NCBI GenBank assembly: GCA_964501115.1
Contig: CAZCRO010000002.1
Span: forward strand, 9,813-73,812
DNA length: 64,000 nt
Direction of reading: 5' to 3'
Source: an uncultured Oscillospiraceae bacterium
GTDB lineage: Bacteria; Bacillota; Clostridia; Oscillospirales; Oscillospiraceae
A program made the position numbers and the translations under genes. The notes under the pieces are model-generated. The model saw nothing but the letters and a program-made list of their open reading frames with translations, was not told where the DNA came from and searched no databases. Numbering within the stretch: position 1 is the first letter of the stretch; every line of letters starts with the position of its first letter. Below are positions 41,534-58,765 of this stretch, one piece after another.

Positions 41534-43153
41534 ATGAAAAGAGAATTGGCCGGACTGCTGGCGGGTGTGAGTCTGCTGCTGTGCGCCTGTACCCCCACCG
41601 GGGAAAACACCTCTTTGGCGAAGGAGCAATCGACACGCTACGGCCAAATCAACACCGACGGTAGTGCGGTCGTGATTTCCAGCGACAACACGGTACGCAC
41701 CATTTCCGCAGACGCGCAAACGGTGCTCCACACCCAGGATGGCAAGTATGTAAGCGTTCTTGAAAAAGACGGTGTATTGACCGTGTACGAAGGCGAGGAG
41801 AAGAAATACGAGGACATCTCCGTGGACAGCATCAGGAGCATGACAGAGGATGCGCTGCTGTTTTCAAAAGGAGATTCCTTCAGACCCTCTTCGGTGGCTT
41901 CTGCAACAGAAGCACCAGCACCTGCTGAAAAAGAAAACGAAGAAACGAAGCAGGACTATATGGTTTATCGCTACACCTTTTCCGATGGACAGGTGTTCTC
42001 TGTCAAGAATCCAAATGGTATTCGTTCTTCAGATAAAGGCAGCGCACTGCTGTACTACCGGGTATCCGATGCGGAAAAAAGCTCTTTGTACCTGGTGAAA
42101 CCTAATTCCAGTGAATCCGAGCCTCTTACCTCCACCCCCAAGAACATCTCTCTGGTAGGTATCAATTCCAGCGGCACGGTCTGCTCCTGGCTGGAATCAT
42201 ATGGGAATGAATACACCCTTTACCTTTATTCCAACGGAGAAAAAGAAAAAATTCTGACCTGCGACAGCAGTTACCTGAGCTACAACATGTACTTCAACGA
42301 AGCTGAGACTCTGGCTGTACTGCGCTCCTCCAACAACAACGAAATCGCAATTTGGACCCAGGCTGATGGTATTCAGAAGGTAAAGCTCCCGGACATTACC
42401 AACTACATGCTCCTTACCGACCAGGGCGGCTTCTATGGTTCCCCCAACGTAACACCGGAAATCTTCTATGTCGGAACCACGGTAGAACCCAACCTGTATA
42501 ACCTCTACGCCGTGGGCACAGACGGAAGCCGGGAGAAGCTGGTAAGCAATATTACAGATGCCGATATCCGCCAGGGGCAGCTCTATTATATCAAAGAGGA
42601 TGGTACCCTGTATACAGGAAAACTCGCCTCCGGTAAGCTCAGCGAAGAGACCCGCATTGCCGACAGCGTTTGCGACCTGGTGGTATCCCCCAACGGCAAG
42701 ACAGTGGTGTACGCAAGAGACGGCGGCAACGACCAGCTGGCAGCCATTTACTACTATACAGTAGGCCAGGATAAGCCCGTGCGTATCACACCGGAAGGTT
42801 ATTGCAGATCTACCTATTATTCTTACAGCGGCTACGGCACCTACACCATGCCCGCCTATTTCTCCGCCGATGGAAAGAGCATTTTCTATTTCAGCGACCC
42901 CTATCAGGTAGACAACTCCAGCACCTACACCACTACACTGATGCAGTATACAATTTCCAAGGATGAAAGCACCCGCATCGTTTCCGATATACTCCCCCAG
43001 CTGGATTCCACATACACCGGCTACGTTGTGGACGAAAATGCCCTCCGGTACTATCGCTTCATCGAAAGTACCGATGATTATGGAAATATTTTTGATTTAA
43101 TGCTCTGGAACGGCACAGAAAGCACCGTTTTGGCAAGAGATTTGAAAAAATAA
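41534..43153 (+). CDS. Hypothetical lipoprotein, probable beta-propeller
   Basis: Lipobox LCAC; S/T/Y-rich with propeller-like turns (VVSPNGKTVVYAR, FSADGKSIFYF). Confidence 0.72.
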   Translation: MKRELAGLLAGVSLLLCACTPTGENTSLAKEQSTRYGQINTDGSAVVISSDNTVRTISADAQTVLHTQDGKYVSVLEKDGVLTVYEGEEKKYEDISVDSIRSMTEDALLFSKGDSFRPSSVASATEAPAPAEKENEETKQDYMVYRYTFSDGQVFSVKNPNGIRSSDKGSALLYYRVSDAEKSSLYLVKPNSSESEPLTSTPKNISLVGINSSGTVCSWLESYGNEYTLYLYSNGEKEKILTCDSSYLSYNMYFNEAETLAVLRSSNNNEIAIWTQADGIQKVKLPDITNYMLLTDQGGFYGSPNVTPEIFYVGTTVEPNLYNLYAVGTDGSREKLVSNITDADIRQGQLYYIKEDGTLYTGKLASGKLSEETRIADSVCDLVVSPNGKTVVYARDGGNDQLAAIYYYTVGQDKPVRITPEGYCRSTYYSYSGYGTYTMPAYFSADGKSIFYFSDPYQVDNSSTYTTTLMQYTISKDESTRIVSDILPQLDSTYTGYVVDENALRYYRFIESTDDYGNIFDLMLWNGTESTVLARDLKK

Positions 43154-43166
43154 AGGAGAGAAAAAT

Positions 43167-43664
43167 ATGAAAAAGATTATTGCGATTCTCACTGTACTCA
43201 TTGGCCTGGCAGTTATCATTCTGGGCGTTAACCTGACTGGCAAAGGAACCTCCCACACGGTATACGGAGACTCGCTGCGCTACTCCGCAGAAAACTACAG
43301 CGTAGACAGCGCCTCCTTCGGCGCCGACTACTATACCTACAGCTACAAGGCAAACCGGGTCATGGTTCAGGAGCTGAATGACCTGAACAAGGCTATGGAA
43401 TCCGTAGTCAAGGCCGGCAACAATGTGCAGAACGCGGTCTCTGCCAATGTGGATGCAACTGACGATCTGATCGAAGCCGTCTATGAGGTCGGCGGCATGG
43501 TCGTCATCGCCATCGGCCTGGGCATTCTGGCTTACGGCGGCCAGGGTATCGTCGCAGCATTCCCCGCAAAGCAGAAGGAACTTGCTGAAACCGCAGAAGC
43601 AGAGCCCGAAGCCTGCTCCCAGGAGCCCCAGAGCGAGGAAGCTGCTCAGGCAGAAGAAGTATAA
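43167..43664 (+). CDS. Hypothetical two-TM protein
   Basis: AAGGAG RBS; N-terminal TM, helical region, second TM, acidic tail. Confidence 0.75.
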   Translation: MKKIIAILTVLIGLAVIILGVNLTGKGTSHTVYGDSLRYSAENYSVDSASFGADYYTYSYKANRVMVQELNDLNKAMESVVKAGNNVQNAVSANVDATDDLIEAVYEVGGMVVIAIGLGILAYGGQGIVAAFPAKQKELAETAEAEPEACSQEPQSEEAAQAEEV

Positions 43665-43695
43665 AAACAAATAATCAACCACTATTGACCCCAAA

Positions 43696-43733
43696 AAGCC
43701 CCTGTCTCGCTTGATAACGCACGACAGGGGCTT
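43696..43733. terminator. Hairpin between convergent genes
   Basis: AAGCCCCTGTC...GACAGGGGCTT. Confidence 0.7.
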
Positions 43734-43760: not shown

Positions 43761-45473
43761 TTAGTTCTGGGTGTAAGGAAGAACTCCGTCAGAGATTTCC
43801 TTGCCATCCCAGAGGATTCCTTCGCAATTACTCAGGCTGTAGATGTAGCCGTAATAGAAGTCCAGTTCCTTGTCCCCCAGATCCCGGAAGCTGTTGTTTT
43901 CGATGTTTGCGGCGCTGACACGCTCCATCAAAATGCCACCCTGGGAGCATTCGTAAATATCGTTGGCCGCAATTTCCATATTTTGGCAATTATAAGCCGT
44001 CACGCCAACAGTTCCGCAGCCGTACAGACCGGTTTCAGCTATCCGGACACGGATACAGCGCTCAAAGCGCAGTACTCCGCCCATGCAATAGCCTGGCTCT
44101 ACTGTATGCCCTGCCGTCAGCTTTTCCACTGCTATGTCCGTACAATCCCGGAAGGTAAATACATGGGCATATCTGGGCACCGCAGAGATCACATTGGTCT
44201 GCTTTCCGTCCTTCCCGCAGACGGTCAGGTTGCTCACGCCGGAAATCACCAGATCCGGGCCGTCAAAGGACTGTTCCCAGGCATAGTAATCGCTGCCCAG
44301 ACCGCCATAGTCCCGGGCCGTGGACAAATCCAGAAGCGGCGTATCCACCAGGATTTTGGTATCCGGGGCAATGGCGTCCAGAAACTGGTCAGCAGTGGTT
44401 ACCGTAACCTCCTTTTGAGGCTGTGTTGTCTCGGTACTCTGCGGCCGCAGGCTGCCCAGCAGCTGCACCAGATTTTCCTCTGTCAGAGGCTCCCCCTGGA
44501 TGTCCCGGACGGTGCTGCCCGGCCGCACCTGAACCCAAGTCCAGCCTGTGTTCTCCCCGCCGGAGCATTCCTCCAGGGTAAGCCTGGAATTAAGGGCATT
44601 CCCTTCCAAACCATATTGCCCTTCCAGAGTGAAGGCCGCACCTTCCATGGTATTTCCTGTGAATACGCAATTTTTCAGGTACACATCAGAGCTGTATGCC
44701 GCAAGAATCTGGCTGTTGTTATCCAGAAATTCACAGTTTTTCGCCACCAGATTCTCCACATTCCATGCCTCAATGGCGGCAAAGCCGCCGATGTCTTTCC
44801 CGATTCCGTAGATCCGGCAATTATCCATCTGCACTGTATCCACGTTATCCAGATTCATGCCGCTTCCGGAGCATTCATAAATATCTGTATCCTCCAGGCG
44901 CAGATTTTCACAGTTCACCGCATTCACGCCCCGGAACCCACAGCCGTACAGTCCCAGATCTTTCAGGGTGATGTCCGTGCAGTTCTCAAACCGGAGTACG
45001 TCCCCCTGGCAGGCCTCAGCCTGGCGCACATGCCCCGCCAGGAAGCCCTGCAGGGTTATATTGCTGCAATTCTCAAACACCAGCACATTGGCACTTCTGG
45101 GAACCGTTTCCAGGCTGGTCACATACTTTCCCGCACCCCGGATGGTCAAATCCTCCACGCCGAAAATTACCAGCTGATAGCCATCCTCCACCATATCCCA
45201 GCGGCAATAAGGAGAAAGCAAATTCAAATCCTGGCCAATATCCAGGCTGACCGTCAATGCTTCCAGTTCCACTACAGCGCCGGGGGCAATGGCCGCTGCC
45301 AAATCCCCGCCGGTAGAAATCACCGTCTCACTGGTCACCACCGGTGCCTCCGGTTCTACCATCGTCTCCACGGTGGGTGCGGTTGTAAAGGTTGGCATCG
45401 TGTTATTCTGACTGCATCCGGCAAGCAGGAGACCTGCGAGCAAAAGGGCAGCCAGTTTTTTGATCGTTCTCAT
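43761..45473 (-). CDS. Lipoprotein with two right-handed beta-helix modules
   Basis: Lipobox LLAGC; two copies of W..DG..LVI...PR.A.V..F..C..I...AGH...C.G.VLRFE.C...GLYGCG...DIYECS. Confidence 0.8.
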   Translation of the reverse strand: MRTIKKLAALLLAGLLLAGCSQNNTMPTFTTAPTVETMVEPEAPVVTSETVISTGGDLAAAIAPGAVVELEALTVSLDIGQDLNLLSPYCRWDMVEDGYQLVIFGVEDLTIRGAGKYVTSLETVPRSANVLVFENCSNITLQGFLAGHVRQAEACQGDVLRFENCTDITLKDLGLYGCGFRGVNAVNCENLRLEDTDIYECSGSGMNLDNVDTVQMDNCRIYGIGKDIGGFAAIEAWNVENLVAKNCEFLDNNSQILAAYSSDVYLKNCVFTGNTMEGAAFTLEGQYGLEGNALNSRLTLEECSGGENTGWTWVQVRPGSTVRDIQGEPLTEENLVQLLGSLRPQSTETTQPQKEVTVTTADQFLDAIAPDTKILVDTPLLDLSTARDYGGLGSDYYAWEQSFDGPDLVISGVSNLTVCGKDGKQTNVISAVPRYAHVFTFRDCTDIAVEKLTAGHTVEPGYCMGGVLRFERCIRVRIAETGLYGCGTVGVTAYNCQNMEIAANDIYECSQGGILMERVSAANIENNSFRDLGDKELDFYYGYIYSLSNCEGILWDGKEISDGVLPYTQN

Positions 45474-45610
45474 GGAATCATCCTTTCCCAATCGTATTCC
45501 GACCCTCGCCGGGGTTTCTGAAACATCTGATTTTATTCTAGCATAATGTTACCGTTTTGTCAGTTCTCTTAACCGTTTTTTAAGTTTTTCCAGCAATTCT
45601 TAGGGTTTTC

Positions 45611-48600
45611 TTAAAAATCCTGAGTCCACTCTCCATCCAGGTACCGATATGTGCCATCTGAAAATTCCTCTTTTTCCACATATATCTCATAGCAGACAGA
45701 CAGGCACATATCCATTTCTTCATTCTCTTCAAAGAGATTCTCCTCGGCAAATACGCCCCGGCAGTGTTCCAGTACCAGGCCAAATCCACCGTTTTGCGTA
45801 AAGCCGCATTGCCGGAAGGTAAGGTTCTGGGAATATTCCAGCTCCGCCCCCTTTGCGCTGCAGGAAAAGAAGCGGGTATTCTCCGCATACAACCCTGTCG
45901 AACGCCAGGCATACAGGCCTGTCATACCGCAGCCATAAAGGTGGCAGCCGGTCAATGTCAGATTTTCAGACTCCTCCCAGTTGAGCACATTGCCGCTGCA
46001 TTTCCCCTTCTCCGGGCTGTGTCCCAGCCAGAGGTTTTCCAAAGATATATCCGTACAGCCACGCAGCACCAGCACTGTTGCATACCGGGCAGAGGCCTCT
46101 ATGCAGCAGGATTGCTGCTCTGCCCGGATCGTCAGGTTATTCAGTTCCTGCAAAACCAGCTGCGAACCATCCCAGGTGGTCTCCCAGGTATATGCGCCAC
46201 CGGCGTGATGTCGGCCATAATCAGAGGCATCCTTCAAAGCATAACTCTGCCGGGTCAGCACAATGGTACGGTTTGACCCCAGCGCAGCCAGGAATTCATC
46301 CACCGTGTCCACCCGATACACCCCATCTTCATCCGGTAGCGGCACAGAAGGCTCTGTCTGCGCAACGGAGTTCCGGATTTCCGTTTCCGGCTCCAGTCCC
46401 ATCTGCTCCAGCATTTCTTCCGTCAGGGGTTCTCTCTGGGCATCCACCGGCAGGGACAAATTCTCTTCAAACCAGCCCTGCACCGTATTTCCGGAAAAAA
46501 CGCACCCATCCACTACAATTCCTCCGGTATCCACCCGGAAGCCCCGGCGGAAGGTATTACGCTTCACATAATTTGCGGAAAATTCCGATTCATACACACT
46601 GGATGCATAGAAAAGATACTCTGTTCTGCAGTTATTTATCACATTTTTGCGGATTTTCAACCCATCACAGCTGGTTGCGCGGAAGACATAGCCTGCATTT
46701 TCGCTGTCCTCCGCAATGCGCAGGAAGTTGCAGCCCTCCACCTGACAGCTGGCACTCTCCCGGAAATCCACACCGCCTGTGGAGGAATCGGTAATGGCGC
46801 AGTTGGTCAGTTCCAGCTCTTCACTGCCCTGACCTACAAATCCTACCGCACCGCAGCCATAAAGCTGACAATTGAGCAGCTGCAAACGGCTACAGTCCAG
46901 AGCCTGTACCACATTGCCTGTACAGACTCCTTTCTCCGGCGTATGCCCAAGAATCACATTTTCCAGACGTATATCCCGGCAGCCGGAGAAAACAAGTACA
47001 TTGGCATAGCGTGGCTTTGTGACCAGCTCTACCCCCTCGCCCCCAAGCAAAACCAGGTCTTCCGCTGTGATCACCAGCTGGTAGCCATCGAAAACCGGCT
47101 CCCAGCGGTAATAAAGGGACGCGCCTGTTCCATAGTGCGTAGCCGCAGACAAATCATAGTATCCCGGTTGCAGGACAATTACGGTATCGGTATGGATCTG
47201 CGACAGCAGCTCATCCACTGTGGATACCGTTACACGCCGCTGGGAAAGTCCCGGCATCCAATACGCCCCCTGATCATCCACCGCCTTAACGCTGTCCGGA
47301 TAGTTGCACTGGGGAGCAGTATTGTTTTCAAAGCTGCCTCCTTTGACGGTCACTTTCTCATCCAGCAGAAATACCGCCTGGTTAAAAACATTGTTTTTCA
47401 CCGTATTTTCCTCCAGAGTCACCTCCCATGTTCCGGATGCCTGCAGGAAAAAGGCAGCGGTATTGTTCTCTATCAGGCAGTTCCGGATCAACACTGCTTG
47501 ATTATATCCCAGAGAAAACAGGGCATCCAGGCAGTCCATATTGTAGATCCGGCAATCCGCCACAGTCAGCTCTTCACACTGCCAGGCAACCACAGCATTG
47601 TAACTGCATTCATACAGGCTGCTTTGCGCCACTTTCAAATCTTTGCATTGCTCCGCCCGGATGGCCACCGCACCACAGCCGAAGAGAGCACTCTCTTCCA
47701 CCTGTACCCCGCTGCATTCACGAAATGCCAGCACATCTCCTGTACAGGTTCCCTGCTCCACTGCATGCCCGGCAGTCAATCCCTGGATGTATATATTTTC
47801 CGATCCGGTGAAATTCAGCACTCCGGCATAGCGTGGTCTGGCCAAAAGCTCGGTTTTCTCCCCATCCTGGCCACGAATTACCAGGTTTTCCACATTTTCA
47901 ATCACCAGCTGGTAGCCATCGTATACTTCCTCCCAGCGGTAGCCGGGGTTACTGCTTTCCTTACCATAGTCCGCCGCACGATCCAGACGATATTCTCCCT
48001 TTTTCATGCGGATTTCCCGGTCGGAGCCAATGGCATCCAAAAATTCATCCACATTGGAAACGGTAACGATTTTCCGCTGTCCCCAGCCTTCCCCCAAATC
48101 CAGAGGCGGAAATATACGTCTCTTCGGCCCCAGGAGCAGGGCGCAGGCCACCACCGTCAGGAGCACTGCCACACCGGCCAGCATTCCCTTCCTGTCCAGG
48201 CAAAAGTGCATAATTCCCAGCAGCCGCTCTTTCAGCTCCTGCTTCTGGGTAGAAAACGTGGTTGCCAGTACCGCGGAGGAAAGCTTCCCCTGAGCCGCCA
48301 TATACAACAAACTTTCCCCATAGGCCTGCTTTTGGCTGGCTGTCATATGGCGGATCACCTGTTCGTCACAGCTGCGCTCACAGGCCAGATCAATCTCCCG
48401 GCGCATCAGTATCACCAGAGGATTGAACCACTGGACAGAAAACACCAGGACGGAAAACCACTTATAAAGGATGTCCCTGCGCCGGTAATGCACAAGCTCA
48501 TGGCGCAGAATATTTTCCAGCATCGGAGCATCGTATTTTCCATAGGGCAGAACAATATCCGGCCGGATCAGCCCCAAAAGCATAGGGGACTCGATGCCAT

Positions 48601-49105
48601 CCACCAATAGAATCCGGGGCTTTTTCCCCTCCCCGGCAAAGCCCTGCCCCTGCCAGCTCATTTCTCCGCGTATATTGGCCTGGAAGCTTTCCGCAAAGCG
48701 CCGGTAGCTGAGCCCATACCAGCAGATACTTGCGGCAAACCCCACCGCCCATGCTGCTCCCAGGAGCAGCTTCCAGGGGATCTCCCGCCGGACAGGAGAG
48801 ACATCAGGCAAGTTTTCATCTGTTTCCTGTTGGGTATCCACCTGGAGTGGAAGCACCGGATATGTGTTGACCGTGCTGTTCTGGCATGTACTCACCTCTT
48901 CCACCGGGCGGGCAGCATCCGGCTGCACCTGCTCCCGGCTGGTGTCTACCAATCCCGGCAGCGGCAGCAAAAAACGCAGCAGTACCACCAGCCAGGCATA
49001 GTAATATACCGCACTGGGCAAACGGCGAAACAGCCCTTTCCCGGCAAGCAGCACCAGCGCCAGTACGCTGCCCCCCAGAGTCATTGTGAGAAACGCTGCA
49101 CTCAT
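45611..49105 (-). CDS. BlaR1-like M56 metallopeptidase fused to three beta-helix modules
   Basis: YYAWLVVLLRFLLP, SPMLLGLIRP, LRHELVHYRRRD (HExxH), WFNPL, DLACERSCDE, LKERL; then three tandem modules. Confidence 0.87.
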   Translation of the reverse strand: MSAAFLTMTLGGSVLALVLLAGKGLFRRLPSAVYYYAWLVVLLRFLLPLPGLVDTSREQVQPDAARPVEEVSTCQNSTVNTYPVLPLQVDTQQETDENLPDVSPVRREIPWKLLLGAAWAVGFAASICWYGLSYRRFAESFQANIRGEMSWQGQGFAGEGKKPRILLVDGIESPMLLGLIRPDIVLPYGKYDAPMLENILRHELVHYRRRDILYKWFSVLVFSVQWFNPLVILMRREIDLACERSCDEQVIRHMTASQKQAYGESLLYMAAQGKLSSAVLATTFSTQKQELKERLLGIMHFCLDRKGMLAGVAVLLTVVACALLLGPKRRIFPPLDLGEGWGQRKIVTVSNVDEFLDAIGSDREIRMKKGEYRLDRAADYGKESSNPGYRWEEVYDGYQLVIENVENLVIRGQDGEKTELLARPRYAGVLNFTGSENIYIQGLTAGHAVEQGTCTGDVLAFRECSGVQVEESALFGCGAVAIRAEQCKDLKVAQSSLYECSYNAVVAWQCEELTVADCRIYNMDCLDALFSLGYNQAVLIRNCLIENNTAAFFLQASGTWEVTLEENTVKNNVFNQAVFLLDEKVTVKGGSFENNTAPQCNYPDSVKAVDDQGAYWMPGLSQRRVTVSTVDELLSQIHTDTVIVLQPGYYDLSAATHYGTGASLYYRWEPVFDGYQLVITAEDLVLLGGEGVELVTKPRYANVLVFSGCRDIRLENVILGHTPEKGVCTGNVVQALDCSRLQLLNCQLYGCGAVGFVGQGSEELELTNCAITDSSTGGVDFRESASCQVEGCNFLRIAEDSENAGYVFRATSCDGLKIRKNVINNCRTEYLFYASSVYESEFSANYVKRNTFRRGFRVDTGGIVVDGCVFSGNTVQGWFEENLSLPVDAQREPLTEEMLEQMGLEPETEIRNSVAQTEPSVPLPDEDGVYRVDTVDEFLAALGSNRTIVLTRQSYALKDASDYGRHHAGGAYTWETTWDGSQLVLQELNNLTIRAEQQSCCIEASARYATVLVLRGCTDISLENLWLGHSPEKGKCSGNVLNWEESENLTLTGCHLYGCGMTGLYAWRSTGLYAENTRFFSCSAKGAELEYSQNLTFRQCGFTQNGGFGLVLEHCRGVFAEENLFEENEEMDMCLSVCYEIYVEKEEFSDGTYRYLDGEWTQDF

Positions 49106-49479
49106 TTCTGATCCTCCGGCACATGGAACATCTCCTGCAGCTGGGCAATATCCTGCAGCGTCAGCCCCTGGGAATCAATCAAACTGGCAACCAAAGCCTT
49201 TGCGCTGCCACGGAAAAGGCGCTGCACCACATTGCCCGTTACCTGATTGGTGTATTCCCTCTCCGTAATGGCGGGAGCATAGGAATATACCCCATTTTTT
49301 GTGCGCACCAGCGCCCCCTTTTCCGTCAGTCGGCCAATCAGGGTTTTGATCGTAGTCGGCTCCCAATGGGTACTTTCCTGCAAGGCCAGACGGATCTCCG
49401 TCACCGTCATCGGCCGGCCTGTATCCCACAACAGGCGCATAATTTCATATTCCGATTCTGTAATTTTCTTATCCGGCAT
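49102..49479 (-). CDS. BlaI/MecI/CopY-family repressor
   Basis: ITESEYEIMRLLW, WEPTTIKTLIGRLTEKGAL, YSYAPAI, LFRGSAKALVASL; ATGA overlap with the M56 gene. Confidence 0.92.
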   Translation of the reverse strand: MPDKKITESEYEIMRLLWDTGRPMTVTEIRLALQESTHWEPTTIKTLIGRLTEKGALVRTKNGVYSYAPAITEREYTNQVTGNVVQRLFRGSAKALVASLIDSQGLTLQDIAQLQEMFHVPEDQK

Positions 49480-49500
49480 ATGCTTTCCTCCTTTTTCTTC

Positions 49501-49555
49501 TTTATAGCACAGGAGACTACAATTGTCAACCATAAAAGTTACATTTGTAGTCTCC
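49501..49555 (-). promoter_or_regulatory. blaI-like promoter with two TACAnnTGTA-type operators
   Basis: GTTACATTTGTAGT (49538-49551) and ACTACAATTGTCAA (49516-49529, overlapping the -35); minus-strand TTGACA-17-TATAAA with TG extension. Confidence 0.82.
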
Positions 49556-50011: not shown

Positions 50012-50548
50012 TCATCCTCCCCAGAGTGTTGCACCGGAAGAAGCATCCGCACCGGTCACATAGGCAACCGCCTCCCGAATGCCACGAGCTACGGCACGGG
50101 AACTGACTGTGGCTCCGGACAGGGCATCTGCATCCACTCCGATCACCGCCTGACCAGAGGTATTCAAAAACTGCGCCAAAAAGGTGCTGTCTGTAAGGAT
50201 TCGGCTGCCCAGTCCCCAGGTTTCTGCCATATTGCATACCTGCAACCCGGTGACACGCCCCGAATTGCCTACTCCCACCAGCATGGTAATGTCCCCGGCA
50301 TAGCCTCCCGTTACAGTCCGCACTACAACTCCTGTCTCCCCTTCCCATGCAGCGATAACACTGCCACCCAGATTTTCATCTGTTCTGGAAGTAAAATGGG
50401 TGCTGCCCGGGAGCAGTATCTGCATTTTTTCAAGAAGCGCTTCCTGCAATCTTGTCTGTCTTACCCCCTCCAGGGAGCGGGACAGACAAAACAACACTCC
50501 GGCGCACAAAAGAATCCAAAAAAAGGCAGGAAATATTGTTTTTTTCAT
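50012..50548 (-). CDS. RnfG-like FMN-binding protein
   Basis: N-terminal TM, GYAGDITMLVGV, ETWGLG, DALSGATVSS and C-terminal DASSGAT. Confidence 0.85.
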   Translation of the reverse strand: MKKTIFPAFFWILLCAGVLFCLSRSLEGVRQTRLQEALLEKMQILLPGSTHFTSRTDENLGGSVIAAWEGETGVVVRTVTGGYAGDITMLVGVGNSGRVTGLQVCNMAETWGLGSRILTDSTFLAQFLNTSGQAVIGVDADALSGATVSSRAVARGIREAVAYVTGADASSGATLWGG

Positions 50549-51474
50549 TCCTTTTCTCCTCTCTTCACACCGAAGCGGCGGGGCAACATCCAGCGATCCA
50601 GTTCCCAGCTCAGGCAATTCATAGTCAAAATAGCATAGCTGACTCCCTCGGGGAAAAGTCCGAAGTAACGGTAAAGCACCGTAAGGCAGCCGCAGCCGAT
50701 ACCGTAGACTACCTGCGCTTTGGGCACCACCGGAGACGTGGCATAATCCGTAGCCATAAACACTGCCCCCAGCATCAATGCGCCGGAGCACAGACTGTAC
50801 GCCATCCAGAGCGGCCCATTTCCCGTTTTGGGCAGCACCAGCGTCAGCACCGCCACACTTCCCAAATAAGCCAGGGGGATGTGCAGAGAAATCACCCGGC
50901 GTACCACCAGATACACCCCGCCCAGCAGCAGCGCCAGAGTAGACAGCTCTCCAATGGAACCTGGGCAGTTTCCCAAAAACAGCGCCCACAGTCCCTCCCC
51001 GGGCAAGGCCGGTCTGACCATATGATGCAGCGGTGTGGCAGAAGAAAAACCGTCCAGCCGGTAATCCGTCATGGCAGCAGGAAACAGCAACAGCATGGCC
51101 GCTCTGGCTCCCAGAGCGGGATTCCACAGGTTCTGCCCAAGACCGCCCCACAGGAGCTTCCCCACCACAATGGCAAAAGCACTCCCTCCCACCACCAGCC
51201 ACATAGGCACAGACACCGGCAGCGTCATCGCCAGCAGCAACCCCGTAACCAGAGCAGAGCCATCCCGAACACTCTGTTTTCCGGACAGCAGGCCATACAG
51301 ACCTTCACTGCCAAGCGCCGCAAGCATCGCCACCGCTGCCACCGCCAAAGCCCGGATCCCCAGCCGCCACACCCCTACCAGCAAAGACGGCACCAGCGCC
51401 AGCACCACATCCAGCATCAGGCGGCTGGTTTTTATATTTTCCCGCATATGGGGGCAATCTGATTTATTTCCCAT
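50545..51474 (-). CDS. rnfD: RnfD-like electron transport membrane subunit
   Basis: DGSALVTGLLLA, GGLGQNLWNPA, SSATPL flavinylation site, GSIGELS, FMATDYATSP, EGVSYAIL. Confidence 0.9.
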   Translation of the reverse strand: MGNKSDCPHMRENIKTSRLMLDVVLALVPSLLVGVWRLGIRALAVAAVAMLAALGSEGLYGLLSGKQSVRDGSALVTGLLLAMTLPVSVPMWLVVGGSAFAIVVGKLLWGGLGQNLWNPALGARAAMLLLFPAAMTDYRLDGFSSATPLHHMVRPALPGEGLWALFLGNCPGSIGELSTLALLLGGVYLVVRRVISLHIPLAYLGSVAVLTLVLPKTGNGPLWMAYSLCSGALMLGAVFMATDYATSPVVPKAQVVYGIGCGCLTVLYRYFGLFPEGVSYAILTMNCLSWELDRWMLPRRFGVKRGEKE

Positions 51475-52765
51475 CACTGCCACGCTCCTCCCGCAGTTTC
51501 TGCTTGCCCCGGCGAAAGTGCTCCACCAGCGGCAACTTTCCGGGGCAGCCAAAGGAGCAGCATCCGCACTCCAGACAATCCTGCAAATGAAGTTCCTCCA
51601 TCCGCTGCACATCCCCTGTCTGCACATAGCGGTACAGATACAGTGGTTGCAGCCGCATAGGACAAACAACTACGCATCTGCCACAGCGCAGACACGCTTG
51701 GTTTGTCTCCGTTTTCTCCTCCGGAAGGCACAGCACGCAGTTGGTAGCCTTCACCACCGGAACCGAAAGATCTTCCTGTGCCCTTCCCATCATAGGGCCA
51801 CCGGAGATGACCCGGTGCTGGCTGCCTTCCTGCCACTGTGCTGCCTCCAATAGCTGCCGGAAAGGCGTTCCAATGCGCACAACAAAATTCCCCGGGCTGG
51901 CAACCGCCTCCCCGGATACAGTAACAATCCGCTCCGTCAGCGGGATGCCTTCGTGTACCGCCCGGGCAATGGCCGCGCAGGTAGATACATTGAATACCCC
52001 ACAACCTACCGCCACCGGCAGTTTACCCGGCGGTACTTCCCGGCCGGTCAGAGCATAGATCAGCTGCTTTTCCGCCCCCTGGGGATAGCGTGTGGGCAGC
52101 ACCTGAAGCCGGATGCCGGGAAACTCCACCAGAACAGCCTCCACCTGCCGGATTGCCTCCGGCTTATTGTCCTCCACTGCCAATATCACCTTCTCCGGCC
52201 GCAGCAGTTTCGCCAAAATCCCCAGCCCCTCCAAGACCCGGCGGGCATCCATGCGCAACAGGGCATCGTCCGCAGTGATATACGGCTCACACTCACAGGC
52301 ATTGCCAATCAGCGTATCTACCTGCCCCAGTGCCGACAGCGCCTTCACATTTCCCGGAAAGGCCGCACCACCCATCCCCACAATGCCCGCCTCCCGGATA
52401 GCCCGGAGCACCTGCTCCGGCTCCTCCTCGGCAACAGGATGCAAAGGTGCCGGGGTATCCAGGAAGTCATTTTCAATGACGATTGCCTCAACCATTCGGC
52501 CGGAAACATGGGCACTTGGCTGAATGGCCACTACCCGGCCGGAGACACTGGCATGAACCGGGACGCACAGACCATCCCCATCCCCAATCTTCTGATAGCG
52601 CAGCACCTGTTCCCCCACCGCCACCAGCGCCCGGCATGGCACACCGATGTGCTGCTGCAAGGGAATCTTCACCTGCGCAGGTGGTTCTGCCGGGATGGGC
52701 ACCACACCCGCCGACAACGCCTTGCGATCTGGGGGATGAACACCCCCAAAAAATCTTCCTTTCAT
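51464..52765 (-). CDS. rnfC: RnfC-like NADH-binding FMN/Fe-S subunit
   Basis: FFGGVHP, GIVGMGGAAFP, ECEPYITAD, YPQGAEK, GGPMMG, CLRCGRCVVVCP, CLECGCCSFGCP. Confidence 0.92.
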   Translation of the reverse strand: MKGRFFGGVHPPDRKALSAGVVPIPAEPPAQVKIPLQQHIGVPCRALVAVGEQVLRYQKIGDGDGLCVPVHASVSGRVVAIQPSAHVSGRMVEAIVIENDFLDTPAPLHPVAEEEPEQVLRAIREAGIVGMGGAAFPGNVKALSALGQVDTLIGNACECEPYITADDALLRMDARRVLEGLGILAKLLRPEKVILAVEDNKPEAIRQVEAVLVEFPGIRLQVLPTRYPQGAEKQLIYALTGREVPPGKLPVAVGCGVFNVSTCAAIARAVHEGIPLTERIVTVSGEAVASPGNFVVRIGTPFRQLLEAAQWQEGSQHRVISGGPMMGRAQEDLSVPVVKATNCVLCLPEEKTETNQACLRCGRCVVVCPMRLQPLYLYRYVQTGDVQRMEELHLQDCLECGCCSFGCPGKLPLVEHFRRGKQKLREERGSDGK

Positions 52766-52805
52766 ATTCCGCCTCTCATTCAGACACTGTTCTTTTCCCT
52801 CTGCT

Positions 52806-53756
52806 TCATTCCTGCATAGCCTTGCATACCAGCTCCCGGAAACCGGTGATGGCAATGGTTACCTGGGAGGCAAGATCCACCTCCTGCGCCTTTCCCTCCG
52901 GCGTGACGGCAATGCCCTGAATCTGGGGCAGGGTCTTTCCCGTTACATAGGTGGCAAAATTGGCCGCCTGCTGGTACCACTCATACCTGGCTCCGCCATA
53001 GGCTTTCATTCCATAGCGCTCTTTCAGCTGGTTTTTGGTCTCCACAGGGGCAGACAAATCGGTTGTAATATGCCCCGCTTCATCCAGGAGCACCGTCACC
53101 TGCAGAGCATCCAGGTAACAGGAACATACCGTATCTTCCCTAACCGTCACTGCGGCAGCATCCCAATCCAGCGAGATACTCCCCCGGGCAGCAGTTTCCA
53201 GACTATACATTCCTGCCAACTTCAATACATCTTCTGCCCCGGCACCCAGATACTGAGCATTTTCGCACGCTTTTTCCAGCGCAACCACCCAGACTTCCGG
53301 AAACTCCCTTTCCAGACTACGCAGCTCCTCCGCCGTTTTGCCGATAGCATATTCTTCCAGCCGGATTGCCTGGTGGCTCCATGCGTCAGTACCGCCGTCC
53401 ACCGTCTTTGCGGTGCTGACCGGCTGGACGGCATCCCGGGTGCACGTTCCGGTATCATCGAAGAAAACCCGGGTCATCAGGCCATCGAGCTTGCAGGCGG
53501 TAATCACGCCGGAGGCATCTGTGTGCACAGCTGCCGCGCCAACCTCCAGAACTACATACCCTTCCTCCGCCGGGGCGGCATTCTCCCCGGAAATGGTTGT
53601 GTGCAGCCCCAGTCCGGTCTTCACAGCTCCTTTTTCTGGGAGCACTGCCTCCTGACTTTCTTCACAGGTACAGTTGTACACAACCGTAGTGCCGGTGCAT
53701 CCCAAAAGCACTGCCAGAATAATCAGCAATAGCAGCCCCGCAAGCACTCTTTTCAT
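52806..53756 (-). CDS. Lipoprotein with two FMN-binding-like repeats
   Basis: Lipobox LLGC; duplicated AAAV...D.L...W..QA...Y..GKT..E/Q unit; C-terminal DLASQVTI. Confidence 0.65.
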   Translation of the reverse strand: MKRVLAGLLLLIILAVLLGCTGTTVVYNCTCEESQEAVLPEKGAVKTGLGLHTTISGENAAPAEEGYVVLEVGAAAVHTDASGVITACKLDGLMTRVFFDDTGTCTRDAVQPVSTAKTVDGGTDAWSHQAIRLEEYAIGKTAEELRSLEREFPEVWVVALEKACENAQYLGAGAEDVLKLAGMYSLETAARGSISLDWDAAAVTVREDTVCSCYLDALQVTVLLDEAGHITTDLSAPVETKNQLKERYGMKAYGGARYEWYQQAANFATYVTGKTLPQIQGIAVTPEGKAQEVDLASQVTIAITGFRELVCKAMQE

Positions 53757-53848
53757 AAAATCCCTCCAAAAATCATGTCATTTCAAACCTTTCCCCTAGT
53801 ATTCCACAGGCATAGTTAAGATATTTCCCGGAAAATACCGGAAAAAGA

Positions 53849-53895
53849 AAAATCCCGCAGAGCTGTCCTTGATAGAACAAACCTTGCGGGATTTT
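53849..53895 (-). terminator. Terminator after the large surface protein gene
   Basis: AAAATCCCGCA...TGCGGGATTTT. Confidence 0.65.
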
Positions 53896-53911
53896 CCTTT
53901 TACAGAAACTT

Positions 53912-56900
53912 TTATTTTTTCTTTTTCAACTTGGGAATCACCAAAACCACAGCCAGGGTGCCTCCCATGCCAAGGCCGATGCCGAATAGCAACACAAGTA
54001 CTGCCTCCCCCAGGGAAATAGTATCCTTCCGGGACTCTTCCTGCACGGCAGGCGCAGACAGCACAGGTATTTGCACAGAAGGCAGTGCATCTCCCCCTCT
54101 GTCCAGTACATCGGTCATATCGTACAATCCTGTCTTGCCTTCCAGAAAGCGGTTGTAGGCCGTCAGCGCATAGTAGGCCTGTTCCGTTGCCATACCGTCC
54201 AGATCTCCATCCGCAATATGTCGGAAGCCGCCCTCCGGAATATAGTAACGCAGCAGGGCATCCAGAGCAGAGCTGCCGTTTTTCACAAAGCGGGAATCCG
54301 TATTCGGGTCAATGCCCAGCGCCGTCAATGCGACCACCACCTGGGAAATGGACTCGCTGGTAGCTACCTTGCCGCCGTTTCCGAAAGTGCTGTAGCCGCC
54401 ATCTGCATCCTGCATCCGGCTCAGACGCTCTACTGCCTTCTCCACAGCGGCTGCCACCTCCGGAACTTCCCGGCAGTAGGGAGCCAGCGCCTGAAGCGCC
54501 ATGCCGGTCATATCCGAATCCGCTTCCGTCCCGGAAATTGCCCAGCCTCCGTCCGGGGTCTGCACTGCCAGGATCTCCTGCAGCAGCCCCTGCCGGGTCA
54601 CATTGCCCTCCGGCACCGGGTAATTGCCACAGTCCAATGCCAACAGCGCCCAAATGGGGCCATTGTTTCCCTGCTTTTTCACGAAATCCATATCGTTCAG
54701 ACCCAGCAGCAGGTTGTGGCCACCAACATTGGTGACATCCTTGCCCATAGCGGTAAGGGCCAAAATCAGCCGGGAATTGTCCGTAGACTTCGCCTTGTGC
54801 AGCCGCTGGTTTTCATCGATATGCTCACGGACATAGGCCACTACCCCTTCATAATACCGGTCTGCATCCGGTATTTCCAGACCGGATCGTGCCAGACCAA
54901 TCACCATCCACTCTCCGCCGACGCTGCCCACACTGGGGGTACCCAGCGCCTGGATATAGCTTCCGGTGGTTTGGAAAGCCTGGGCGAACTTTTCTCCGGA
55001 AATCCCCTGCTCCAGGACCTTCTCTTCCGCTTCCAGCAGCTCCAGGTTCTCCACCAGTTGCTTTTGCAGCTGCGTCAGCGCCTCGTAGCCGGCCCGGGCA
55101 GCCTCCACCGCGGCACGCTTGTCTCCTGTGATGCCTGCCAAAGCCTGGATTTGATCTATCACAGCCTGGGCTTTTTTCTTGTCCTCCTGGGTGGCATTCA
55201 ACTTTGCCAATGCGGTTTCCGCCTGGGTCAGAGTCTTATAATTGGTCACCAGCGCCTTCTGATCCTCCGTCAGGCTGTCATAGCCCCGGCGGGCGGTCTG
55301 GATGGCCATGCTACCGTCCTTGGTAACGGGAGAGGGGATTTTTTCTATCAAGTCCATCACCTGCTGGGCAAGCAGGGCATTCCACTTCTTTGTAGCGGTC
55401 TGCAATGCTTCCAGCTTGGTTACCAGTTTCTTCTGCTGATCCGTCAGCGCATTGTAGGCTTCCCAGGCTGCGGTGATGGCCGAACCACTGTCTGCCGTGG
55501 GGGTGCCAATCTTATCAATCAGTGCGTCCACCTTCTTGGCGGCTGTCTGGTTTGCCTGGACTTGCTCGCTGTCCGTAGGCTTGCCGTAGGCGTTGCCCCC
55601 CTCTTCGTAGCTATAGTCATCGGCATAGTGCAGAACGATTTTGTCACCATTGCGGATATACTTGGCAGATACGCCCACCTCCGGGTGGACACCGTTTACC
55701 GTATACATCCAGCCGGAATTGGCTCCATTGTCGAATTCTGCCAGGCCGTTGATCCCTTCGATATAATAGCTGTTGTACTTTTCCGAATACTTTGCCTGGA
55801 TGGACAGGCCGTGCTTCTGGCATACCCTCTGAATCACATCCCACACCGTTTCCTTGGCATCCGCTTCCACTTTGCTTTCCGTTGCCCAGGGGGTCAGACC
55901 GCCTCTGGCCAAACCGTGGGGGCCACCGTTGGCACTGGGGGATTCATGATGACTGTCCCCCAGGATGGAGACAGCCACATAGATTTTTGTGGATTTGGGG
56001 CTGATCTGAATGGTGATGTCCGCCTTCGCCCCTTGATAACTCAGAGTAATGGTTTGGGCACCGGTCTTTTCCATGCTGTAGCTTCCGATGGTTACATCGG
56101 ACAGCTTCAGCACTTTTTTCTCACCGTCGCTCCACACGGCTGTCAGGGTGATGCCTGTCAAATCCAGCTTATCCCCAACGGTATACTGCGTTTTATAGCT
56201 GCCTCCTGCCACCAACTCTGTCACATAGGCTTCTATCTGAGCATCGGTATAGCAGAGCTTCTCCATATCGGCACCCAGAGGGTCATCCTCCCGGTTGCAA
56301 TCCGTCTTTGTCACTGCCCGGTTATTTCCTGTGGCTACTTTGCCGATGGTAGCCAGCTCCACATAGGTTTGCAACGCCACACAGTTAATATTTTCCAGGG
56401 AATCAGAAGATGTATCGTAATAGAATACCCCATCATGGAAGCCGCCGGTAACGGCGCTGGTGTCCACATGGGCTACACCGCCAATACCCTTGGCCGCATT
56501 TTGATAATAGTTGCCACTGATATGATTATACCGGTTCAGAGACTGCATAAAACCGATGATACCGCCGACAAAGCTGCCGGAGGTAGCGCTTACCGTGCCT
56601 GTGGAGCGATTGTTGAGAATATATCCCGCGCCATTGGGCCAGCACTGCTGAACACAGGCCTCCGCTCCGTAGATGCCGCCCACCGCATTTCCGCCGGTGA
56701 CGCTACCGGTATTGGTACAGCTCTTAATGGTGACCATCTTGGCATTGGGGGCAGTTTCCATACCCCAGTTGGTACCAGCATAGCCGCCGCCGACAATGCC
56801 GCCAACATAGTTTCCTGTAGCCACTACGCTACCGCCAAAAGTACAGTCCTGCACTTCCAGATCTGCCATAGATTGTCCCTGGTTGGCGACAATGCCGCCA

Positions 56901-58735: not shown

Positions 58736-58765
58736 TTGCACAACTCCTTTTCTATCCATTCCATA

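What the first reader, a model, noticed from the sequence alone, without database searches (positions are those of the whole stretch)
43761..49555. BlaI/BlaR1-like circuit built on a shared beta-helix module in both sensor and adjacent lipoprotein
Seen: a BlaI repressor with two TACAnnTGTA-type operators and a coupled M56 protease with intact HExxH. Its extracellular part has three copies (starting near 48070, 47235, 46320) of a module V.TVDE.L...DYG...Y.WE...DG.QLV...PRYA.VL.F..C...GH...G.C.G.V...LYGCG. The next gene is a lipoprotein with two copies of the same module (near 45325 and 44410). No penicillin-binding domain or beta-lactamase is visible. Known: in BlaR1/BlaZ the sensor and effector share a ligand-binding fold. 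Inference: an analogous system in which a beta-helix (pectin-lyase-like fold) senses a non-beta-lactam ligand, perhaps a glycan or wall fragment, and the lipoprotein binds or degrades it. The W, DG, R, GH and GCG residues conserved in all five copies may form the site. I do not know of a description of this architecture, but could not search.
Basis: partly seen in the sequence, partly recalled or inferred. Interest (0 to 1): 0.8.

Follow-up and report, generated by a model that had tools for sequence, protein, structure and literature searches.

The report
BlaI/M56 switch with shared beta-helix module
This bacterium carries a relative of the staphylococcal penicillin-alarm switch (a repressor plus a membrane protease) whose outer part is three copies of an unstudied module, predicted to fold as a beta-helix, that also makes up the surface lipoprotein encoded next door; the two likely recognise the same still-unknown cell-surface signal, with the lipoprotein likely acting as a binding partner rather than as a degrading enzyme.

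Summary
In detail: blaI, an intact M56 protease with three modules, and a lipoprotein with two (28-37% identical). One operator is perfect; the second has one mismatch and overlaps the -35. The module is predicted to be a generic pectin-lyase-type beta-helix with no family match. Its tie to BlaI/M56 is real: 119 of the 120 closest protease relatives carry it, and 47 of 102 genus loci are blaI/M56-linked. Three wirings occur: fused sensor plus lipoprotein (as here, 5), fused only (10), and lipoprotein heading an operator-gated operon with an Ig-like sensor (32). That last pair got weak complex support (0.58, control 0.01). The BlaZ analogy needs correction. Here the lipoprotein has its own promoter with TTAAG repeats and no operator, so BlaI could reach it only by read-through. 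It stands alone at 55 loci, it is not a local copy of the sensor, and no catalytic set is evident. D, R and three Cys form one in-register stack, so the Cys are probably structural. The ligand is unknown; a cell-wall or glycan signal is likeliest. BlaR proteins without a penicillin-binding domain are the published majority, and this scan noted this family twice on other DNA. New variant; interest 0.5.

The parts
49540..49549 (.). BlaI operator 1, perfect TACAnnTGTA palindrome
   Evidence: a site at the same place in 5 of 5 other loci of this layout, perfect in 4
49518..49527 (.). BlaI operator 2 (one mismatch), overlapping the -35
   Evidence: top genome-wide hit of a matrix trained without the window
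49501..49529 (-). predicted blaI promoter: TTGACA (49524-49529), 17 bp, TATAAA (49501-49506)
   Evidence: read from sequence; TTGACA+operator pattern sits before blaI in relatives; not listed by the promoter scan, which needs T at position 6
49102..49479 (-). blaI-family repressor, 125 aa; S99/L100 align with the BlaI scissile N101/F102
   Evidence: cleavage site from PMC9834060 passages
45611..49105 (-). M56 sensor-protease, 1164 aa, coupled to blaI by ATGA overlap
48488..48502 (-). HELVH zinc motif (aa 202-206); E243 and D247 follow; T283/F284 align with the BlaR1 autocleavage site
47450..48073 (-). sensor beta-helix module 1 (aa 345-552)
46616..47239 (-). sensor beta-helix module 2 (aa 623-830)
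45737..46318 (-). sensor beta-helix module 3 (aa 930-1123)
45568..45614 (-). TTAAG-type direct repeats with 11-bp period (two pairs: 45599-45614 and 45568-45583), resembling OmpR-family activator boxes
   Evidence: top hit in the genome of a matrix trained without the window (15.4, next 11.5)
45535..45563 (-). lipoprotein's own predicted promoter CTGACA-17-(TG)TAGAAT, no BlaI operator
   Evidence: homologous promoter before stand-alone lipoproteins
43761..45473 (-). lipoprotein, 570 aa, lipobox Cys20
44712..45329 (-). lipoprotein beta-helix module 1 (aa 49-254)
43794..44414 (-). lipoprotein beta-helix module 2 (aa 354-560); predicted structure pLDDT 93.6
43693..43733 (-). G+C-rich hairpin with T run after the lipoprotein (likely terminator); none of this kind between sensor and lipoprotein
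   Evidence: fold of both intergenic stretches; one search listed no terminator in 45474-45610 and did not list this one either

Best explanation
This is a BlaI repressor plus an M56 membrane protease whose outer part, three copies of a module predicted to be a beta-helix, likely binds a repeating cell-envelope ligand (likely a wall or glycan polymer); binding would switch on the protease, which would cut BlaI and raise transcription of blaI, the sensor and, by read-through, the lipoprotein, which likely binds the same ligand without degrading it. The lipoprotein has its own predicted promoter with activator-type repeats, so it would be present before induction and would act as co-receptor and buffer. 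The module is the recognition unit of a family of such switches. It works in cis when fused to the protease (as here) or in trans as a lipoprotein predicted, with weak support, to dock on an Ig-like sensor. Shown: gene layout, motifs, conservation, three wirings, operator positions. Predicted: fold, clustering of conserved loops, docking in the trans form. Inferred: proteolysis of BlaI (about 0.85), read-through (0.7), shared ligand (0.6), glycan or wall nature (0.4), non-catalytic lipoprotein (0.6).
For: The protease and repressor align with BlaR1, BlaI and MecI, and the catalytic and autocleavage residues are kept. Operators cover the promoter. 119 of 120 closest protease relatives, found with the protease part alone, carry the module; Y389, W399, R434, H456, C463 and C486 are kept in about 100% of their modules. 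47 of 102 genus loci are blaI/M56-linked; in the own genome only 1 of 56 lipoprotein-like genes lies within 500 bp of such a gene, and it is this one. In the trans form an operator of a different sequence covers the lipoprotein promoter in 31 of 31 loci with enough upstream DNA (shuffles 0.14). Module-bearing proteases fall in two deep clades (AU p 0.041). Complex prediction for the trans pair scored 0.58 against a best control of 0.01: weak support; 116 of 157 solved complexes and 2 of 215 mismatches reach the mark, but at 0.60 or under only 18 solved ones and both mismatches; runs agree in at least 95% of contacts, partner pLDDT at least 86. The nearest folds are nearly all glycan-acting or glycan-binding beta-helices. 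Conserved aromatic, Arg and His residues lie in the loops that wall the groove in such folds (PMC9410043 passages). Two close relatives add a DD-carboxypeptidase-fold domain lacking the SxxK motif, and two others a phosphodiester-glycosidase domain. Distant homologues are fused to choline-binding repeats, a solute-binding protein or a copper-amine-oxidase N-terminal domain.
Against: No ligand, cleavage or transcript was shown; RNA contigs cannot show an operon. The docking test was on a relative's trans pair, not the window's proteins, and is weak. The fold match is flat (Z 17.9 down to 13.4 over 50 rows), so it gives no substrate. The window's sensor modules are no closer to its own lipoprotein than to others (ranks 157-485 of about 491). 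Four of the five loci with this layout are near-copies (89-98% module identity) and share the flanking kinase gene with 11 stand-alone loci, so the adjacency may partly reflect one cassette gain or loss. blaI-M56 cassettes of the trans clade often have no module at all (15 of 16 other M56 loci fetched). A shared fold may bind protein rather than sugar.
Confidence: 0.45

Rival explanations
1. One reading: the lipoprotein is an enzyme that destroys the ligand, and the sensor carries copies of the same fold as a detector.
For: The structural neighbours are mostly lyases and hydrolases. In 31 of 31 trans-form loci the lipoprotein is the first operator-gated gene. R434, H456, Y435 and N/D437 are conserved and could be catalytic. 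FdlA shows that beta-helix enzymes can use non-standard residues (PMC9410043 abstract and passages). No other operator-gated gene was found in this genome.
Against: The same residues are equally conserved in sensor and lipoprotein modules, unlike a tuned-down sensor. The outward groove-floor positions 440, 469, 492 and 515 are variable. NCBIfam glycosidase models score 11-28 bits against cut-offs of 500-600. There is no operator at this lipoprotein's promoter.
Confidence: 0.2
2. The conserved patch binds protein, not sugar: the module docks on sensor ectodomains (or on other copies of itself), and the switch reads the presence, shedding or occupancy of the lipoprotein, much as SaeP modulates SaeS.
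For: Weak complex support for the trans pair (0.58 against 0.01). The full two-unit Ig-like ectodomain is found at 26 of 32 trans-form loci (5 cut by contig ends, 1 partial) and at none of 15 module-less M56 loci of that clade. SaeP is an induced lipoprotein that feeds back on its sensor (PMC5083920 passages).
Against: 55 of 102 loci are stand-alone lipoproteins, and 23 of 69 genomes had only such loci among those fetched. 9 genomes had only the fused form. The ectodomain profile was built from 6 trans-form sequences and these loci are kin, so the co-occurrence is confounded. The window's own pair was not tested.
Confidence: 0.17
3. The module is a thiol or metal sensor: the invariant His and three Cys bind a metal or become oxidised, so the switch reports oxygen or metal stress at the surface of an anaerobe.
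For: H456, C463, C486 and C509 are 99-100% conserved in 309 modules; each module has 8-10 Cys; weak NosD and CopY profile hits.
Against: The three Cys are in register on successive coils, the position of a ladder; a structural cysteine ladder is known from FdlA. NosD (18 against 300) and CopY (90 against 122) models fall short of their cut-offs. A distant homologue lacks the GCG cysteine.
Confidence: 0.1
4. The modules are passive stalks picked up by ectodomain shuffling, and the lipoprotein sits next door because the cassette landed at its locus; the two share no function.
For: M56 ectodomains are very diverse (254 architectures, PMC13492132 section 12); same locus with and without the cassette; separate promoter; no local duplication.
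Against: Surface-type residues (W, Y, R, H) are kept in about 100% of sensor modules across a clade at about 40% protease identity. The link recurs in two protease clades with two different operators. The window lies among other neighbours than the kinase locus yet keeps the same order.
Confidence: 0.08

Closest known systems
BlaR1/BlaI and MecR1/MecI of Staphylococcus aureus (PDB 8EXP, 1SD4, 1OKR; PMC9834060)
   Same: M56 zinc protease with HExxH, E, D and an aligned autocleavage site; winged-helix repressor; TACA/TGTA operators over the promoter (that this is the staphylococcal consensus is recalled, not from a call).
   Different: No penicillin-binding domain; three beta-helix modules instead. 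blaI lies upstream of the sensor; no divergent blaZ or mecA. The repressor's scissile position is S-L, not N-F. The neighbour is a lipoprotein with its own promoter.
CenIR of Clostridioides difficile and other non-canonical BlaIR systems (PMC13492132)
   Same: [quoted passage not shown]
   Different: CenR has a short, largely disordered ectodomain; here the ectodomain is about 830 aa and folded, and it is shared with the neighbouring lipoprotein. Beta-helix is not among the domains named in the paper's Fig 7 legend and was not found in its two supplements.
Pectin-lyase-like beta-helix proteins (8JA4 alginate epimerase/lyase, 4MXN, 6KFN alginate lyase, phage tailspikes, FdlA)
   Same: Right-handed parallel beta-helix with N-terminal capping helix; Z up to 17.9, rmsd 2.5-2.7 A over 173-187 residues; long loops beside the groove; Cys ladder as in FdlA.
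   Different: 7-19% identity, no stand-out match; short module repeated 1-4 times; variable groove floor; no family model reaches its cut-off.
SaeP/SaeRS and CiaR-type boxes (PMC5083920, PMC4938410)
   Same: The lipoprotein promoter carries TTAA(G) direct repeats with 11-bp period upstream of the -35, like GTTAAN6GTTAA (SaeR) and NTTAAGN5TTTAAG (CiaR); a lipoprotein modulating a membrane sensor has a precedent in SaeP.
   Different: The cognate regulator is not identified, and no wider regulon rose above controls; the sensor is a protease, not a kinase.

Membership tests
Canonical BlaR1/MecR1 beta-lactam sensor | M56 protease with HExxH and downstream zinc-site residues | tested here: met
   Pfam PF05569 E 7e-42; HELVH, E243, D247 align with 8EXP
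Canonical BlaR1/MecR1 beta-lactam sensor | Autocleavage site at S283/F284 | tested here: met
   T283/F284 align; site from PMC9834060 passages; cleavage itself not shown
Canonical BlaR1/MecR1 beta-lactam sensor | Extracellular penicillin-binding (transpeptidase) domain | tested here: not met
   No such Pfam hit; three Beta_helix stretches instead; blaR1_generic 83 bits against cut-off 400
Canonical BlaR1/MecR1 beta-lactam sensor | Linked beta-lactamase or PBP2a under the operator | tested here: not met
   None among 8 neighbouring proteins scanned; no second clear operator in the genome, which is 89% complete
BlaI/MecI repressor | Penicillinase_R fold and palindromic operator over its promoter | tested here: met
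BlaI/MecI repressor | Cleavage by the cognate protease on induction | not testable with these tools
   S99/L100 align with N101/F102; needs an experiment
Non-canonical BlaIR systems (CenIR type) | M56 sensor without transpeptidase domain, with closely linked upstream blaI | tested here: met
   definition from PMC13492132 section 12
Beta-helix polysaccharide lyases and hydrolases (PL1/3/6/9/31, GH28) | [quoted passage not shown] | tested here: met
   AlphaFold2 pLDDT 93.6; VIA Z 17.9; covariation at i+23, i+29, i+31
Beta-helix polysaccharide lyases and hydrolases (PL1/3/6/9/31, GH28) | Family-level sequence match | tested here: not met
   NCBIfam glycosidase models 11-28 bits against 500-600; Pfam PF12708 below cut-off; PDB profile search best E 6e-4 on short generic coils
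Beta-helix polysaccharide lyases and hydrolases (PL1/3/6/9/31, GH28) | Conserved catalytic acid/base set in the groove | tested here: inconclusive
   Groove-floor positions vary, but R434, H456 and N/D437 are conserved; geometry inferred from register, no coordinates available
NosD copper chaperone | NosD family model and nos gene context | tested here: not met
   TIGR04247 18 bits against 300; Pfam NosD passes on generic coils; no nos genes recognised in the ORF list
CopY/TcrY copper repressor | CopY model and C-terminal Cys motif (motif recalled) | tested here: not met
   TIGR02698 90 against 122; the protein has no Cys

The most novel reading that the evidence does not exclude
A family of BlaI/M56 switches in gut Oscillospiraceae uses one detachable beta-helix receptor that works either as a lipoprotein co-receptor docked on an Ig-like protease ectodomain or fused to the protease in 2-4 copies, and reads a cell-wall or glycan signal. 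It would be a BlaR-type system activated through an accessory lipoprotein, which I found no description of, and it offers a defined, foldable ligand-binding domain for finding what non-beta-lactam BlaR sensors detect.
Probability: 0.3. Interest if true: 0.75.

Novelty: new variant of a known kind. Interest (0 to 1): 0.5.

Why it matters
Only about 6% of BlaR-like proteins have a penicillin-binding domain, and the inducer of the studied envelope example, CenIR, was not found (PMC13492132). This family gives a tractable handle: a soluble 210-residue module with an invariant patch that exists as a free lipoprotein, so ligand screens and structures are easy, and a small operator-defined circuit for a reporter. 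It also shows one module moving between trans and cis wiring in two protease clades. The signalling principle is known and the ligand is not, which limits the surprise.

Tried and rejected
The search for related loci gave nothing, so organism names come only from NCBI labels of relatives. The single-sequence model of the whole lipoprotein was poor (pLDDT 56) and its fold search had no match at E 0.001 or below; both were replaced by the alignment-based module model. RNA contigs from two animal gut runs of one study cover parts of both genes but cannot show strand, level or read-through. Local duplication of the sensor modules from the adjacent lipoprotein: rejected. A cationic-peptide sponge: module charge (-8.5 per 100 aa) equals that of 56 lipoprotein-like proteins of this genome (-8.4), so no support. 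A genome-wide regulon for the TTAAG repeats: 4 hits against 5-8 in shuffles; 12 hits against 17 in reversed-pattern controls in five genomes; only the lipoprotein promoters stand out. A wider BlaI regulon: no clear second site in this genome, and of 7 matches in five relatives 5 were at the blaI promoter. My argument that the module must be the effector because it is the only output was weakened by module-less blaI-M56 cassettes and by operator pairs before unrelated genes. The careful tree did not finish; the quick trees cannot tell fusion from fission. No family in the fold search stood out, which excludes none. Literature searches: searches listed no paper on an M56 plus beta-helix system (listings only); one search found nothing usable on the repeat motif. 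Subscription papers were not searched.


Full report
Observation. On the minus strand lie blaI (49102-49479), an M56 gene coupled to it by an ATGA overlap (45611-49105, 1164 aa) and, after a short gap, a lipoprotein gene (43761-45473, 570 aa, lipobox Cys20). Pfam gives Penicillinase_R, Peptidase_M56 and Beta_helix. The protease aligns with S. aureus BlaR1 (8EXP): HELVH 202-206, E243, D247 and T283/F284 at the autocleavage site (site from PMC9834060, passages seen). The repressor aligns with MecI and BlaI, with S99/L100 at the scissile N101/F102. Hydropathy shows N-terminal membrane segments and a last one at aa 305-329 before the modules.

Promoters and operators. One operator is perfect (49540-49549). 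The second has one mismatch (49518-49527) and overlaps a TTGACA -35 with TATAAA 17 bp on. A site with at most one mismatch lies before blaI in all five other loci of this layout, the pair in four of them, and a matrix trained without the window ranks the window's site first in the genome. No clear second target was found here, and in five relatives 5 of 7 matches were at the blaI promoter. The lipoprotein has its own predicted promoter (45535-45563) with no operator (0 of 6 loci). It is preceded by TTAAG direct repeats of 11-bp period. Such repeats precede 5 of 6 lipoproteins of this layout (the window's was missed by the test's -35 rule), 37 of 52 stand-alone ones and 14 of 31 in the trans layout, against under 1 in shuffles. 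They resemble SaeR and CiaR boxes (PMC5083920 and PMC4938410, passages seen). A matrix trained without the window ranks this promoter first in the genome, but no wider regulon rose above controls. A strong hairpin with a T run follows the lipoprotein and none lies between the two genes, so read-through from the blaI promoter is likely but not shown; RNA contigs were uninformative.

The module. A profile of the five copies found 1166 cluster representatives at E 1e-30 or below. Of the best 150, 49 are M56 fusions with 2-4 modules, and the other 101 lack a detected M56 domain and are mostly lipoproteins or secreted proteins. The alignment-based model of lipoprotein module 2 has pLDDT 93.6. It is a right-handed beta-helix with a capping helix. 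The nearest solved folds are lyases, tailspikes and an uncharacterised protein, with Z 17.9 falling smoothly to 13.4 and 7-19% identity, so no family is indicated. In 309 modules W399, G455, C463, G485, C486 and G487 are 100% conserved, H456 and C509 99%, R434 97% and D404 93% (lipoprotein numbering). Covariation in 845 modules gives the coil register (i+23, +29, +31) and places D404, R434, C463, C486 and C509 at one position of five successive coils (inferred; signals among invariant columns themselves are unreliable). The cysteines are therefore probably a ladder, as in FdlA (PMC9410043, passages seen). W399, Y389, Y435, R434, H456 and N/D437 lie in the loops that wall the groove in such folds, while the outward groove-floor positions vary. 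That suits a binding patch better than a standard lyase site. I had no coordinates, so this geometry is inferred.

Linkage in other genomes. The module occurs in 74 of 300 genomes of the genus, in 0 of 24 genomes of other families of the order and in 4 of 400 across the phylum. There it is single and fused to a solute-binding protein, choline-binding repeats or a TPR-bearing part, with no other Pfam family in the fourth; Atlas clusters add copper-amine-oxidase N-terminal fusions. I fetched 102 loci from 69 genomes; the match list showed 150 of 199 matches, so some loci were missed. They fall into four types: fused sensor plus lipoprotein as here (5), lipoprotein-blaI-M56 with an Ig-like Big_14 ectodomain where the gene is complete (32), fused sensor only (10) and stand-alone lipoprotein (55). 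In the 32 trans loci a different palindrome, GGTTTAAnnnnTTAAAC, covers the lipoprotein's promoter in 31 of 31 with enough DNA, twice in 29. The same palindrome precedes blaI in 6 of 9 fused-only loci. Searching with the protease part alone, 119 of the 120 closest relatives of 640-2037 aa carry the module; several are labelled Oscillospiraceae or Clostridiales by NCBI. Module-bearing proteases fall in two deep clades (quick trees; one-clade test p 0.041, group named after seeing the first tree; gain and loss cannot be told apart).

Evidence against a simple reading. The window's sensor modules are not closer to its own lipoprotein than to hundreds of others. Four of the five like loci are near-copies and share a flanking kinase gene with 11 stand-alone loci, so the layout has about three independent examples including the window. 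Of 20 further loci headed by the second operator, 16 had an M56 gene and only one of these had a module lipoprotein; three headed unrelated genes. These cassettes shuffle ectodomains freely.

Docking test. For one trans pair (L033), the lipoprotein module and the sensor's Ig-like ectodomain scored 0.58 against a best control of 0.01, with runs agreeing in at least 95% of contacts and partner pLDDT at least 86. The tool calls this weak: 116 of 157 solved complexes and 2 of 215 mismatches reach the mark, but at 0.60 or under only 18 solved ones and both mismatches. The full ectodomain occurs at 26 of 32 trans loci and at none of 15 module-less ones, though the profile was built from six trans loci and kinship confounds this. 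The window's own pair was not tested.

Mechanism. Most likely a ligand, probably a repeating wall or glycan structure, binds the tandem modules, activates the protease and removes BlaI from the operators, raising blaI, sensor and lipoprotein expression. The lipoprotein, supplied also from its own promoter, likely binds the same ligand as co-receptor and buffer. Hints for the wall are indirect: the fold class, two close relatives with a DD-carboxypeptidase-fold domain lacking SxxK, two with a phosphodiester-glycosidase domain, and a choline-binding fusion in one distant homologue. The rivals are an enzymatic lipoprotein (0.2), protein-only docking (0.17), thiol or metal sensing (0.1) and passive stalks (0.08).

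Comparison and verdict. It works like BlaR1/BlaI but fails membership on the penicillin-binding domain and the resistance gene. It fits the non-canonical BlaIR class, in which only about 6% of some 15,000 M56 proteins have a transpeptidase domain and 254 architectures exist (PMC13492132: abstract, passages, section 12 and a term search of two supplements). Five searches listed no paper on this architecture. This scan has noted the same family on two other genomes, and the sensor-plus-free-paralogue design with other folds. New variant of a known kind; interest 0.5.

Noticed in passing
L040, L042, L045, L046, L048, L022, L024, L039, L080, between promoter and lipoprotein gene: A short ORF of about 45-55 codons with a hydrophobic, signal-like start sits in front of the lipoprotein at these loci; the window lacks it.
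   Followed up: no
L075, L088, L095, L096, L102, upstream of the lipoprotein: A different hydrophobic ORF of about 20-25 codons lies between the operator-covered promoter and the lipoprotein.
   Followed up: no
proteins P0043 and P0286, aa about 386-541: A Peptidase_S11 (DD-carboxypeptidase) domain without the SxxK motif lies between the protease and the beta-helix modules in two close relatives of the sensor.
   Followed up: partly
P0027 and L068:4911-8924: M56 plus two modules plus a C-terminal NAGPA phosphodiester-glycosidase domain.
   Followed up: no
83 of the 120 sensors: 83 have a C-terminal tail over 150 aa after the last module; 82 of them cluster together, and the few such sensors scanned had no further Pfam family there.
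   Followed up: no
L135:64-118 and L186: The trans-clade promoter with its operator stands before genes that look like acetyltransferases (GNAT- and CatA-like by my recall, not scanned) with no blaI nearby: remote targets or cassette remnants.
   Followed up: partly
G000:C41 near 14767 and L195: The same TTAAG-type repeat precedes a related lipoprotein gene in two genomes; it looks like an efflux adaptor by my recall and may be a second target of the unknown activator.
   Followed up: no
window 50012-58759: Upstream on the same strand: rnfC/D/G-like genes (recognised from sequence, not scanned), a lipoprotein, and a 1615-aa surface protein with DUF4430, Big_3 and prenyltransferase-like domains.
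   Followed up: no
window 41534-43664 (+): A 539-aa lipoprotein-like protein with a weak propeller hit and a 165-aa membrane protein converge on the beta-helix lipoprotein and may share its terminator.
   Followed up: no
G000:C1:45807-48283 and G000:C59:6809-9480: Two more blaI-M56 pairs with other ectodomains in the same genome.
   Followed up: partly
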